Part shown: positions 10,856 through 12,889 of the stretch, in pieces
Position numbering within the stretch: the first letter of the stretch is position 1
Layout: every line of letters starts with the position of its first letter
From: an uncultured Clostridia bacterium
Lineage (GTDB): Bacteria; Bacillota; Clostridia; TANB77; CAG-465
Assembly (NCBI GenBank): GCA_934169925.1
Contig: CAKPOO010000003.1
Location: 62,847 to 126,846 of the forward strand
Direction: 5' to 3'
DNA: 64,000 bases
The notes under the pieces: model-generated
Databases searched by the model: none
Told to the model about the DNA's origin: nothing
What the model saw: only the letters and a program-made list of their open reading frames with translations
Made by a program: the position numbers and the translations under genes

Positions 10856-12889
10856 ATGGAAAGAGAAGAAAATATTTTAGGAAAAGAAAATGTTGGAACT
10901 TTAATTAAAAAATTTTCAATACCTTGCATAATTTCATTGCTTGTTAACTCATTATATAATGTAGTTGACCAGATTTTCATTGGTTGGGGTGTTGGATATT
11001 TAGGTAATGGTGCAACAAATGTAGTATTTCCACTTACTATGATTTGTCTTGCTTTTGCACTTATGTTTGGAGATGGAGCTTCAGCATATCTTAGTTTAAA
11101 ACTTGGACAAAAAAGAAAAGATGAAGCTTCAAAAGGTGTTGGAAATGGTATAATGCTATCTGTTATAGTAGCTGTTTTTTTATGTGTTGTAATACTTGCA
11201 TTTTTACCAACTCTTTTGAATTTATTTGGATGTACTGATGTTTTAAGAGAGTACGCACTAAATTATGGATATATAATTGCAATAGGTCTTCCATTTATGA
11301 TGATAGGTACTACTTTAAATTCAATTATTCGTTCTGATGGTAGTCCAAAATATGCAATGATTTCAATGCTTCTTGGTGCAATTTTAAATATTATACTTGA
11401 TCCAATTTTAATATTTGTATTTAATTTAGGTGTGCAAGGAGCAGCAATTGCAACTGTATTTTCACAAATTGTAACATTTGTAATAAACGTTATATATTTA
11501 AAGAAATTTAAGAGTATTGATGTAGAAAAAAGTATATTTAAATTAAAATTTGATGTAGCTAAAAAAGTTACAATGCTTGGTATTAGTAGTTTTATAACTC
11601 AAATGAGTATAGTATTTGTTATAGCAGCAGAAAATAACTCGTTATCAAAATATGGTGCAAATACAAAATATGGAGCAGAAATACCGATTACTGTACTTGG
11701 TATAGTTATGAAAATTAGTCAAATTTTAAATAGCGTTATAATTGGTATTGCATCAGGTGCTCAACCAATATTTGGATATAACTATGGTGCAAAAAAATAT
11801 GATAGAGTAAGAAAAACTTTAAAAATAGTTTTATGCTTTAGTTTAATGATAAGCTTATTTGCATTTATATTATTCCAAACAATACCAGATAAATTAATAT
11901 CTATATTTGGTAGTGGTGATGAGTTATATATGGAATTTGCTTGTAAAGCATTTAGAATATATTTATTATTTTGCATATTTAATGGAGTTCAAATTCCATC
12001 ATCAATTTTCTTCCAAGCTATTGGAAAAAGTGGAAAAAGTGCAATTTTATCATTATCAAGACAAATATTATTTTTAATACCTTCTATGATAATTTTAGGT
12101 AGTATTTTGGGTATAACTGGAGTACTTTTTGCAGGACCTGTTGCAGATGGACTTGCATTTTTAATTGCAATTACATTATTAATACTTGAATTAAAACATA
12201 TGAAAGAAAATGTAAATGAAAGTAAAACTGCAAAAGAAGAAGTTCAAAGTAATGATGATGATAATTACAATGTAAAAGAAACAAATAATACTAATGATTT
12301 AGTTATAACTATTGCAAGAGAGTATGGATCTGGTGGTAGATACATTGGAAAAATTATCGCTGAAAAATTAAACATGAAATTATTAGATAAAAATTTCATA
12401 CAAGAGCTTGCTAAAAATACTGGTTTTAATGAAGAATATATAAAAGAAAATGAACAAAAAAGAGATGCTTTAGATGCCTTAAATTCAGGTTATTATTCTA
12501 CATTAAACTCTGCAGATGAGTTGTTTATAAAAGAATCAGAATTAATAAAAAGTGAAGCTAAAAAAGGTGCTTGTGTTATTGTTGGTAGATGTGCAGACTT
12601 TATATTGAAGGATAGAGAAAATGTTGTAAAAGTATTTATAACAAGTTCTACTGATGATAAAGTAAAAAGAGTTCAAAAATATTATGGCATAGAAAATGAA
12701 AAAGAAGCTAGAAAAGAAATAACTAGAATTAATAAATTAAGAGCAAATCATTATAAATATTATACAGATAGAAATTGGTATGATAGTTCAAATTATGATT
12801 TATGTTTAAATAGTGATTCTTTAGGTGTTGAAAAAACAGCTGAAATTATTTGTGAGTATGTAAAAGCCAAAAAAGATAATAATAAATAA
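10856..12889 (+). CDS. MATE-family efflux transporter fused to a C-terminal cytidylate-kinase-like (PF13189-type) domain
   Basis: 677 aa in one frame. Residues 1 to about 450 give 12 predicted TM helices with MATE-like repeats. Residues from about 470 onward (ITIAREYGSGGRYIGKIIAEKLNMKLLDKNF...) match the cytidylate-kinase-like family signature. Confidence 0.75.
   Translation: MEREENILGKENVGTLIKKFSIPCIISLLVNSLYNVVDQIFIGWGVGYLGNGATNVVFPLTMICLAFALMFGDGASAYLSLKLGQKRKDEASKGVGNGIMLSVIVAVFLCVVILAFLPTLLNLFGCTDVLREYALNYGYIIAIGLPFMMIGTTLNSIIRSDGSPKYAMISMLLGAILNIILDPILIFVFNLGVQGAAIATVFSQIVTFVINVIYLKKFKSIDVEKSIFKLKFDVAKKVTMLGISSFITQMSIVFVIAAENNSLSKYGANTKYGAEIPITVLGIVMKISQILNSVIIGIASGAQPIFGYNYGAKKYDRVRKTLKIVLCFSLMISLFAFILFQTIPDKLISIFGSGDELYMEFACKAFRIYLLFCIFNGVQIPSSIFFQAIGKSGKSAILSLSRQILFLIPSMIILGSILGITGVLFAGPVADGLAFLIAITLLILELKHMKENVNESKTAKEEVQSNDDDNYNVKETNNTNDLVITIAREYGSGGRYIGKIIAEKLNMKLLDKNFIQELAKNTGFNEEYIKENEQKRDALDALNSGYYSTLNSADELFIKESELIKSEAKKGACVIVGRCADFILKDRENVVKVFITSSTDDKVKRVQKYYGIENEKEARKEITRINKLRANHYKYYTDRNWYDSSNYDLCLNSDSLGVEKTAEIICEYVKAKKDNNK

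What the first reader, a model, noticed from the sequence alone, without database searches (positions are those of the whole stretch)
10856..12889. MATE efflux transporter fused to a cytidylate-kinase-like (PF13189-type) cytoplasmic domain
One uninterrupted 677-aa ORF has a 12-TM MATE transporter core followed by a C-terminal domain of about 200 aa whose N-terminus (ITIAREYGSGGRYIGKIIAEKL) is the hallmark of the poorly characterised cytidylate-kinase-like family. A nucleotide-binding or kinase-like domain appended to a MATE exporter suggests nucleotide-gated or regulated export. I do not recognise this architecture as described.
Basis: seen in the sequence. Interest (0 to 1): 0.5.

Follow-up and report, generated by a model that had tools for sequence, protein, structure and literature searches.

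The report
MATE exporter fused to kinase-like domain
A gut Clostridia gene really does join a drug/metabolite efflux pump (MATE type) to a kinase-shaped domain that has lost the key kinase residues, and comparison with other genomes shows this domain family repeatedly pairs with membrane transporters, pointing to an uncharacterised transporter accessory or regulatory module.

Summary
ORF 10856..12889 (+) encodes 677 aa: a 12-TM DinF-type MATE core (E 1e-75 to DinF-BH, coupling Asp38 kept), a ~36-aa non-conserved linker, and a PF13189 domain (170 bits against a cut-off of 28).

It is not an assembly artefact. The intact fusion occurs in an independent strain, in more than 100 protein clusters, and in at least 22 GTDB species (43-70% identity, collinear).

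Three findings are new.
1. The domain has a cytidylate-kinase fold, but an invariant Gly replaces the Walker A Lys and Arg/His replaces the Mg-binding Ser/Thr. It is not a conventional kinase.
2. The same domain is fused C-terminally to MFS_1, MFS_2 and DUF6198 membrane proteins.
3. Stand-alone PF13189 genes lie immediately downstream of MATE genes of the same subfamily (12/50 against 4/684 background, P=4e-12, in Firmicutes and Bacteroidota) or at the end of Liv-type ABC operons.

Pocket residues are invariant whatever the partner. The best reading is a proton-coupled MATE exporter carrying a tethered ligand-binding accessory or regulatory pseudokinase. Regulation and the ligand are inferred, not shown. 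I found no publication describing it. Verdict: new variant of a known kind, with moderate interest.

The parts
10740..10767 (+). Terminator-like hairpin plus T-run ending the upstream SNF2-helicase gene; insulates the fusion gene from upstream transcription
   Evidence: 2 terminator-like sites found against 0.3 expected in shuffles
10795..10824 (+). Promoter-like site: TTGACA, 18 nt, TG-TAAAAT (11/12 match, extended -10)
   Evidence: Consensus match only; promoter-like sites are not enriched in this AT-rich region (14 found against 19 expected)
10843..10850 (+). Shine-Dalgarno AAAGGAAG, 5 nt before the ATG
   Evidence: read from sequence
10856..12889 (+). Complete CDS of the MATE-PF13189 fusion protein (677 aa plus stop)
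10856..12187 (+). MATE core, residues 1-444: 12 TM, DinF subfamily
   Evidence: E 1e-75 to DinF-BH (4lz6/5c6n/5c6o) over residues 4-443
10967..10969 (+). Codon of Asp38 in TM1 (LYNVVDQIFIG); aligns with DinF-BH Asp40, the position mutated to Asn in entry 5c6n
   Evidence: alignment; conserved in 22/22 fused relatives with an intact N-terminus
12188..12295 (+). Polar/acidic linker, residues 445-480; poorly conserved tether
   Evidence: 4-33% identity and 23-55 aa long across fused relatives. pLDDT below 50 for residues 448-478 in the weak full-length model
12296..12886 (+). PF13189 cytidylate-kinase-like domain, residues 481-677
12317..12340 (+). Degenerate P-loop R488-E-Y-G-S-G-G494-R495. Gly494 sits at the Walker A Lys position and Arg495 at the Ser/Thr position
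   Evidence: (HMMER alignments to 1kag GAGKST and 1q3t SSGKST)
12584..12598 (+). G577-R578-C-A-D581 motif (VGRCAD), aligning with the DGRD NMP-site motif of cytidylate kinases; invariant Gly-Arg
12947..12989 (.). 19-bp-stem hairpin flanked by A/T runs; a bidirectional terminator shared with the convergent ORF 12990..13610 (-)

Best explanation
The gene encodes a proton-coupled DinF-type MATE exporter. Its cytoplasmic C-terminus carries, on a flexible ~36-aa tether, a PF13189 domain: a cytidylate-kinase-fold pseudokinase-like module.

Shown:
(a) The fusion is genuine, monocistronic and conserved in a monophyletic group of low-GC gut Firmicutes.
(b) This MATE subfamily and PF13189 form a conserved two-part module that exists either fused or as adjacent genes, across phyla.
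(c) PF13189 also pairs with other transporter classes (MFS_1, MFS_2, DUF6198 fusions; Liv-type ABC operons).
(d) The domain lacks the canonical Walker A Lys and Ser/Thr but keeps an invariant, partner-independent pocket (R488, S492, G494, D511, G577-R578, R629, Y647).

Inferred: the domain does not phosphorylate cargo. It binds a common phosphorylated or nucleotide-like cytoplasmic ligand in the altered Gly-rich loop and NMP-site region, and docks on the cytoplasmic face of the transporter to modulate (gate, inhibit or activate) the inward/outward-facing cycle. This would couple export to a metabolic or energy signal. The ligand and the sign of regulation are unknown.
For: Real and conserved:
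- Independent strain and assembly.
- The best 120 clusters listed all carry both domains.
- 22 of the 80 best GTDB species loci carry a collinear fused ORF, 43-70% identical over residues 1-673.
- An identical relative, P0087, is found in at least 157 collection blocks, including HMP samples.
- Both domains are conserved in parallel (MATE 45-77%, PF13189 45-67%) while the linker is not (4-33%, 23-55 aa). All invariant residues are kept in 23/23.

Functional pairing:
- 12/50 upstream neighbours of stand-alone PF13189 genes are MATE, against 4/684 non-adjacent ORFs (odds ratio 54, P=3.9e-12). Eleven are co-oriented, with gaps of -4 to 196 bp, and they include Prevotella and Odoribacter.
- Partner MATEs belong to the same subfamily as ours (54%, 43% and 32% full-length identity, against 19-27% partial for unlinked MATEs).

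Promiscuity towards transporters:
- C-terminal fusions to MFS_2, MFS_1 and DUF6198.
- LivM-LivG-LivF-PF13189 operons.
- PF13189 subclades track partner class.

Not a canonical kinase:
- Gly at the Walker Lys position and R/H at the Ser/Thr position, family-wide.
- Fails TIGR02173.

Common pocket irrespective of partner.

MATE core intact: Asp38 corresponds to DinF-BH Asp40.

Established knowledge: 12-TM MATE proteins have both termini in the cytoplasm, and fused C-terminal regulatory domains are known in other secondary transporters (for example LacS-IIA).
Against: - There is no direct evidence of ligand binding, of domain-transporter contact, or of any effect on transport.
- Position 495 (one residue after the missing Lys) is basic in 79/81 members and Arg488 is invariant, so an unconventional phosphotransfer site cannot be excluded.
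- A near-invariant Cys579 could indicate catalysis or a redox role instead.
- The full-length AF2 model was too weak (pLDDT 61, pTM 0.46) to show docking.
- The neighbourhood statistics come from the 80 loci most similar to our domain (biased sample), heuristic ORF calling and a single-locus background.
- The NJ tree has no support values.
Confidence: 0.55

Rival explanations
1. The PF13189 domain is a catalytically active, unconventional phosphotransferase or hydrolase. It chemically modifies the transported compound or a co-substrate at the membrane, giving metabolic coupling or channelling analogous to kinase-driven trapping in PnuC/NadR-type systems. Arg488/Arg495 would substitute for the Walker lysine, and Cys579 might act in catalysis.
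For: Cytidylate-kinase fold with the GR motif of the NMP site retained. A basic residue at position 495 in 79/81, invariant Arg488, and Cys579 conserved in 80/81. Tight operonic or fused linkage is also typical of enzyme-transporter coupling.
Against: Both residues that define P-loop phosphotransfer (Walker A Lys and Ser/Thr) are absent family-wide. The pocket is identical whether the partner is an exporter (MATE), sugar-type symporter (MFS_2), MFS_1, DUF6198 or an amino-acid ABC importer, which is hard to reconcile with cargo-specific chemistry. It scores far below the CMP-kinase cut-off.
Confidence: 0.2
2. The domain is a ligand-independent structural accessory (oligomerisation, stability, membrane-insertion or localisation module) with no sensing or catalytic role.
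Against: The strictly invariant residues cluster in the motifs that form the phosphate and NMP pocket in the homologous kinases (Gly-rich loop, GR motif). That is the conservation pattern expected of a small-molecule site rather than of a mere scaffold. The surfaces and insert that vary are those that differ with partner class.
Confidence: 0.2
3. The single ORF is an assembly, sequencing or annotation artefact joining two adjacent genes (MATE and a stand-alone PF13189 gene).
For: More distant lineages do carry the two as separate adjacent genes, sometimes overlapping by 4 bp (L078).
Against: The ORF is intact in the window, in an independent strain and assembly, in a 90% cluster on contigs up to 316 kb, in the best 120 clusters listed, and in 22 GTDB species down to 43% identity, all with a linker and no stop. 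Short 'stand-alone-looking' close hits are 5'-truncated fragments that begin inside TM11/12.
Confidence: 0.01

Closest known systems
DinF-BH (BH2163, Bacillus halodurans), the H+-coupled DinF-subfamily MATE multidrug exporter; PDB 4lz6, 4lz9, 5c6n, 5c6o
   Same: Full-length alignment of the core (residues 4-443, E about 1e-75). 12 TM. The TM1 Asp (Asp38 here) aligns with the Asp mutated in 5c6n. Same NCBIfam profile as the VmrA/FepA/MepA-like exporters.
   Different: DinF-BH is about 446 aa and ends after TM12. Our protein continues with a linker and a 197-aa cytoplasmic domain. No substrate is known for ours.
Stand-alone PF13189 proteins with solved structures: 3hdt (Clostridium symbiosum 'putative kinase') and 3fdi (Eubacterium ventriosum 'uncharacterized protein')
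   Different: They are free ~200-aa cytoplasmic proteins from structural-genomics projects with no assigned function. Ours is tethered to a transporter.
Bacterial and archaeal cytidylate (CMP) kinase, Cmk (e.g. 2h92, 1q3t, 7l4a; TIGR02173)
   Different: The Walker A Lys is replaced by Gly and the Ser/Thr by Arg. Identity is 14-21%. Scores 42.9 bits against the 102.1 cut-off. Not a member.
LacS-type GPH transporters with a C-terminal IIA(Glc)-like regulatory domain, and more generally CBS, STAS, USP or RCK domains fused to secondary transporters (own knowledge; not tested here)
   Same: Same architecture logic: a complete secondary transporter, a linker, and a soluble cytoplasmic domain at the C-terminus that modulates transport. 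A PF13189 fusion to the same GPH/MFS_2 family exists (P0212).
   Different: Unrelated fold and signal (HPr-dependent phosphorylation for LacS). No regulatory function has been demonstrated for PF13189, and no such domain has been characterised on a MATE transporter.

Membership tests
MATE (MatE, PF01554 / TIGR00797) | Profile match above the curated cut-off, with two MatE repeats | tested here: met
   PF01554 E 8.4e-40, 2 stretches; TIGR00797 183.4 bits against 147.4
MATE (MatE, PF01554 / TIGR00797) | 12 transmembrane helices in two 6-TM lobes | tested here: met
   12 merged hydropathy peaks between residues 24 and 444; helices throughout 13-454 in the AF2 model, although the C-lobe is low-confidence
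DinF subfamily of MATE (H+-coupled) | Closest similarity to DinF-BH, and a conserved TM1 aspartate (Asp40 of DinF-BH) | tested here: met
   E 1e-75 to 4lz6/5c6n/5c6o, against 2e-35 to PfMATE and about 1e-11 for the weakest listed hits (6idp, 6ids, 9l7l). Asp38 aligns to the position that is Asn in the 5c6n mutant entry
DinF subfamily of MATE (H+-coupled) | Proton-coupled drug or metabolite antiport activity | not testable with these tools
   Needs transport assays
PF13189 Cytidylate_kin2 | Profile match above the gathering score over the full model | tested here: met
   170.2 bits against 28, model positions 1-175 of 176
PF13189 Cytidylate_kin2 | Family-invariant residues (R8, S12, G14, D31, G97-R98, W161 in domain numbering) | tested here: met
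   All present in the window protein and in 23/23 fused relatives
Cytidylate kinase (Cmk; TIGR02173 and bacterial Cmk) | Equivalog profile score above the cut-off | tested here: not met
   TIGR02173 42.9 bits against 102.1
Cytidylate kinase (Cmk; TIGR02173 and bacterial Cmk) | Walker A motif GxxGxGK[ST], with Lys binding the ATP phosphates and Ser/Thr binding Mg2+ | tested here: not met
   The loop is R-E-Y-G-S-G-G-R. Gly494 aligns to the Lys and Arg495 to the Ser of GAGKST (1kag) and SSGKST (1q3t). Invariant Gly in 81/81
Cytidylate kinase (Cmk; TIGR02173 and bacterial Cmk) | NMP-kinase alpha/beta fold | tested here: met
Transporters with a fused cytoplasmic regulatory domain (functional class, e.g. 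LacS-IIA) | Soluble domain on the cytoplasmic side, joined by a flexible linker to a complete transporter | tested here: met
   Domain follows TM12. The linker is non-conserved and variable in length. The cytoplasmic location follows from established MATE N-in/C-in topology
Transporters with a fused cytoplasmic regulatory domain (functional class, e.g. LacS-IIA) | The domain binds a signal and changes transport activity | not testable with these tools
   Needs ligand-binding and transport assays. Only indirect support exists: a partner-independent invariant pocket and association with several transporter classes

The most novel reading that the evidence does not exclude
PF13189 is a large family: 8,512 representatives at 50% identity. 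It is gut-enriched and highly expressed according to PMC13601570. On this reading it is a previously unrecognised, general transporter-associated sensor or pseudokinase subunit. It would read one common cytoplasmic signal (a nucleotide, alarmone, second messenger or redox state) and control several mechanistically unrelated transport systems (MATE, MFS, DUF6198/YitT-like, Liv-type ABC, possibly RND) in anaerobic gut bacteria. The MATE fusion in this window would be its most direct, experimentally tractable embodiment, and the first MATE transporter with a built-in regulatory domain.
Probability: 0.35. Interest if true: 0.75.

Novelty: new variant of a known kind. Interest (0 to 1): 0.55.

Why it matters
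MATE exporters are among the most abundant gut-enriched gene families, and they are usually treated as constitutively active pumps controlled only at the level of transcription. A conserved built-in cytoplasmic domain implies post-translational control of export, or an obligatory accessory function.

The comparative data also give the first functional handle on PF13189. This family has thousands of members, two orphan crystal structures, and reported high expression in the gut. It is physically or genetically coupled to transporters and is not a normal kinase.

That turns an 'unknown function' family into a set of direct experiments: ligand screening of a 197-aa soluble domain, and transport with or without the domain. 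It also warns against automatically annotating these proteins as cytidylate kinases or nucleotide-metabolism genes.

Tried and rejected
1. Assembly-artefact hypothesis: rejected.
2. Genuine CMP kinase: rejected on score and Walker A.
3. Riboswitch or RNA leader upstream: Rfam at gathering thresholds finds only two tRNAs in the window and nothing near the gene.
4. Conserved gene neighbourhood around the fused gene that might name a pathway: none. Blastp of 11 window neighbours against all ORFs of the 22 fused loci gave only one weak PAP2 hit, and P0087 has different neighbours.
5. Short close hits (P0121, P0123, P0130, P0134, P0140 and others) as possible natural split variants: they begin inside the last MATE or DUF6198 helices or have junk N-termini, so they are truncated gene calls.
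6. Full-length AF2 to see domain docking: the alignment I was allowed to submit is shallow (30 sequences, about 71% identity). The result was pLDDT 60.8 and pTM 0.46, so it was not used for inference beyond secondary structure and the disordered linker.
7. Literature: five searches found no description of the fusion, of PF13189 function, or of 3hdt/3fdi. They found only incidental mentions.
8. MOP-flippase reading from the weak Polysacc_synt hit (33 bits): discounted, because similarity to DinF-BH is overwhelmingly stronger.
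Full report
OBSERVATION. The window contains one uninterrupted ORF at 10856..12889 on the + strand, 677 aa long. Pfam finds two MatE stretches (E 8.4e-40) and a full-length PF13189 'Cytidylate kinase-like family' match at residues 483-654 (E 6.3e-50; 170 bits against a gathering score of 28). NCBIfam's general MATE model is passed (TIGR00797, 183 against 147 bits), while the (d)CMP-kinase equivalog is not (42.9 against 102.1 bits). Hydropathy gives 12 TM segments, the last ending near residue 444, followed by a polar/acidic stretch and then the soluble domain.

TRANSCRIPTION UNIT AND CONTEXT. The gene looks like its own transcription unit. A terminator-like hairpin closes the upstream SNF2-helicase gene (10740-10767). 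A near-consensus extended -10 promoter-like site follows (10795-10824), then a Shine-Dalgarno AAAGGAAG, and a 19-bp-stem bidirectional terminator lies after the stop (12947-12989). The surrounding genes are ordinary chromosomal ones: RNase R, TrmB-like methyltransferase, formate-THF ligase, PAP2, SNF2 helicase and the spoIIIA operon. The window is about 25% G+C, so the source is a low-GC spore-forming Clostridia bacterium. No Rfam element lies near the gene. It is the only PF13189 or MATE ORF of this kind in the 64 kb.

IS THE FUSION REAL? Yes.
- A protein differing at only three residues (K19N, Q464K, N472D) is encoded on an independently assembled ENA contig with the same neighbours.
- Its 90% cluster has six members, on contigs up to 316 kb.
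- The best 120 clusters returned by the homology search are all 660-675 aa and carry both Pfam domains. Some lie on contigs above 1 Mb, and NCBI names them simply 'MATE family efflux transporter'.
- One relative, P0087, is found identically in at least 157 blocks of the collection, including HMP human-gut samples, always as one ORF.
- A scan of GTDB species representatives with a PF13189 profile returned 80 best loci out of at least 596. In 22 of them the domain is part of a 599-698-aa ORF that is collinear with ours over residues 1-673.
- These fall into two tiers: 61-70% identity in 'Clostridia' MAGs, including Candidatus Scatovivens, and 43-47% in MAGs labelled Bacilli or Tenericutes.
- Across these proteins the MATE core (45-77%) and the PF13189 domain (45-67%) are conserved in parallel. 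The linker is not (4-33% identity, 23-55 residues).
- Every family-invariant residue is retained in 23/23.
- Close hits that look stand-alone are 5'-truncated gene calls that start inside TM11/12.
The artefact hypothesis is effectively excluded.

THE TWO HALVES: MATE CORE. The MATE core aligns end to end with DinF-BH (BH2163; 4lz6, 5c6n, 5c6o) at E about 1e-75, far better than with PfMATE (2e-35) or the weakest listed MATE structures (about 1e-11). Asp38 in LYNVVDQIFIG aligns with the TM1 aspartate that is replaced by Asn in the 5c6n mutant entry. This residue is kept in all fused relatives with an intact N-terminus. The core therefore looks like a working H+-coupled DinF-type exporter.

THE ACTIVE-SITE SIGNATURE IS MISSING.
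- In HMMER alignments of the family profile to shikimate kinase (GAGKST) and pneumococcal CMP kinase (SSGKST), the family's invariant Gly (Gly494 here) occupies the Walker A lysine position. Arg/His occupies the Mg-binding Ser/Thr position.
- This holds in 81/81 domains examined.
- The Gly-Arg of the kinases' DGRD NMP-site motif is retained as VGRCAD.
- Position 495 is basic in 79/81, Arg488 is invariant, and Cys579 is conserved in 80/81.
An unconventional phosphate-binding site therefore remains possible. A conventional ATP-dependent kinase does not.

WHAT THE FAMILY DOES ELSEWHERE. An exhaustive search of 1.84 billion representatives with the domain alone finds 8,512 representatives at E<=1e-3, mostly ~200-aa stand-alone proteins. 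Pfam scans of the longer hits show the domain fused, always at the C-terminus, to four unrelated membrane families:
- MATE: P0122, P0124, P0128, P0142.
- MFS_2/GPH: P0212.
- MFS_1: P0221.
- DUF6198/YitT-like: P0158, P0170, P0191, P0230, P0270. Three Bacteroidota loci (L030, L052, L071) also carry this fusion.

NEIGHBOURS OF STAND-ALONE GENES. Among the 55 stand-alone genes in the GTDB loci, Pfam on the immediate upstream neighbours gave MatE in 11 of 50 and ABC ATPases in 8 of 50. Downstream neighbours gave MatE in 3, MFS_1 in 1 and TrkH in 1. With an in-house MATE HMM:
- 12/50 upstream neighbours are MATE, against 4/684 non-adjacent ORFs in the same loci (odds ratio 54, Fisher P=3.9e-12).
- Eleven are co-oriented, with gaps from -4 to 196 bp.
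- The taxa include Christensenella (complete chromosome CP091723), Lachnospiraceae, Fusicatenibacter, Prevotella and Odoribacter.
- The partner MATEs belong to the same subfamily as ours. They are 54% (L064), about 43% (L078, L040, L065) and 32% (Bacteroidota) identical over about 450 residues, and have the same NCBIfam profile. Unlinked MATEs align at 19-27% and only partially.

OTHER TRANSPORTER LINKS. The ABC-linked loci share the order LivM-like, LivG-like, LivF-like, PF13189. A rough NJ tree (no support values) places all 23 MATE-fused domains in one clade with two sub-clades, and all Liv-linked ones in another. The DUF6198-fused domains lie next to the MATE-fused clade, and the MATE-adjacent stand-alones fall in several clusters. 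In a published F. nucleatum RNA-seq table, the cytidylate kinase-like gene lies two locus tags from an RND permease, and both rise about 2-fold (PMC9848294). A 2026 gut 'colonization factor' atlas lists MATE and cytidylate kinase-like families among the largest gut-enriched families, and the latter among the most highly expressed. It files the latter under nucleotide metabolism and does not mention a link (PMC13601570).

MECHANISM. Several things are shown:
- a complete DinF-type exporter with its coupling Asp;
- a flexible tether;
- a well-folded kinase-fold domain under purifying selection;
- a conserved MATE/PF13189 partnership, split or fused, across phyla;
- pairing of the domain with exporters and importers of different mechanistic classes;
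- a pocket whose residues (R8, S12, G14, D31, G97-R98, R149, Y167 in domain numbering) do not change with the partner, while an insert at domain residues ~45-82 does.

From this I infer that the domain does not act on cargo, which differs between partners. It would read a common cytoplasmic ligand, probably a phosphorylated or nucleotide-like molecule held by the altered Gly-rich loop and the retained NMP-site arginine. It would then modulate the transporter through contact with its cytoplasmic face. This is the logic of LacS-IIA and of CBS-, STAS- or USP-bearing transporters (own knowledge).

I put this at about 0.55. The rivals are:
- an unconventional enzyme (0.2);
- a ligand-independent scaffold or oligomerisation module (0.2);
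- an artefact (0.01).
The ligand, the sign of regulation and physical docking are all untested. The full-length AF2 model was too weak to help.

COMPARISON AND NOVELTY. The protein is a member of MATE (DinF subfamily) and of PF13189. It is not a cytidylate kinase, because a defining feature was tested and not met. It resembles known transporter-plus-regulatory-domain fusions in architecture but uses a different, uncharacterised domain. I found no paper that describes a MATE transporter with a fused cytoplasmic domain, or any function for PF13189. The sequences themselves are abundant in public databases under a generic name. I rate it a new variant of a known kind, with interest 0.55. The fusion alone is a modest curiosity. 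The cross-family, cross-phylum transporter association of a large orphan family is the part a specialist would want to follow up.

CAVEATS.
- ORFs in loci were called heuristically.
- The background MATE frequency comes from the same loci.
- The Liv assignments are best hits below equivalog cut-offs.
- Promoter and terminator calls are consensus matches only.

Noticed in passing
window 13860-14748 (+): spoIIIAA is split into two overlapping ORFs. The first is 158 aa (Spore_III_AA profile positions 6-157) and the second is 139 aa (profile positions 160-291). The same split is present on the independent ENA contig L081. It is therefore a real frameshift or pseudogene, or a recoding site, rather than an error of this assembly.
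   Followed up: partly
window ~12915-12950: A short AAAAAT-type microsatellite (about 6 units) lies between the stop codon of the fusion gene and the bidirectional terminator hairpin.
   Followed up: no
window 12990-13610 (-) and 5552-6049 (+): Two ORFs of 206 aa and 165 aa have no Pfam family. The first is convergent with the fusion gene and shares its terminator. It is also called on the independent contig L081.
   Followed up: no
L037, L048, L049, L054, L063, L067, L070 (and L066 with one extra ORF): Stand-alone PF13189 genes sit at the 3' end of LivM-LivG-LivF-like ABC importer operons in Lachnospiraceae and Oscillospiraceae MAGs. Their PF13189 domains form one clade, and some have Lys instead of Arg at loop position 15.
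   Followed up: partly
P0212, P0221; P0158, P0170, P0191, P0230, P0270; L030, L052, L071: PF13189 is also fused C-terminally to MFS_2 (GPH), MFS_1 and DUF6198/YitT-like membrane proteins. The DUF6198 fusions occur in Muribaculaceae and Prevotella.
   Followed up: partly
P0249 (394 aa) and P0250 (360 aa): P0249 is a tandem double PF13189 protein. P0250 is a PF13189 protein with a long Ala/Lys-rich repetitive C-terminal tail.
   Followed up: no
L019 (CAVKYO010000086.1, 4.1 kb): This contig is binned as Acidaminococcus fermentans, but it has 27% G+C and carries a Bacilli-type MATE-PF13189 fusion. It is probably mis-binned.
   Followed up: no
PF13189 domain position 99 (Cys579 of the window protein; nt 12590-12592): The Cys in the VGRCAD motif is conserved in 80/81 domains examined, although it is Leu or Ala in a few members of alignment A1. 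A thiol or redox role, or a catalytic role, is possible but unexplained.
   Followed up: no
Fusobacterium nucleatum TDC 100 locus tags CS401_RS3610 to RS03620 (literature): The cytidylate kinase-like gene lies two tags from an RND efflux permease, and both are induced about 2-fold by P. gingivalis signals (PMC9848294). This may be a further transporter class linked to PF13189.
   Followed up: no
window 6722-6793 and 29527-29599 (+): Two tRNA genes are the only Rfam matches at gathering threshold in the 64 kb.
   Followed up: no
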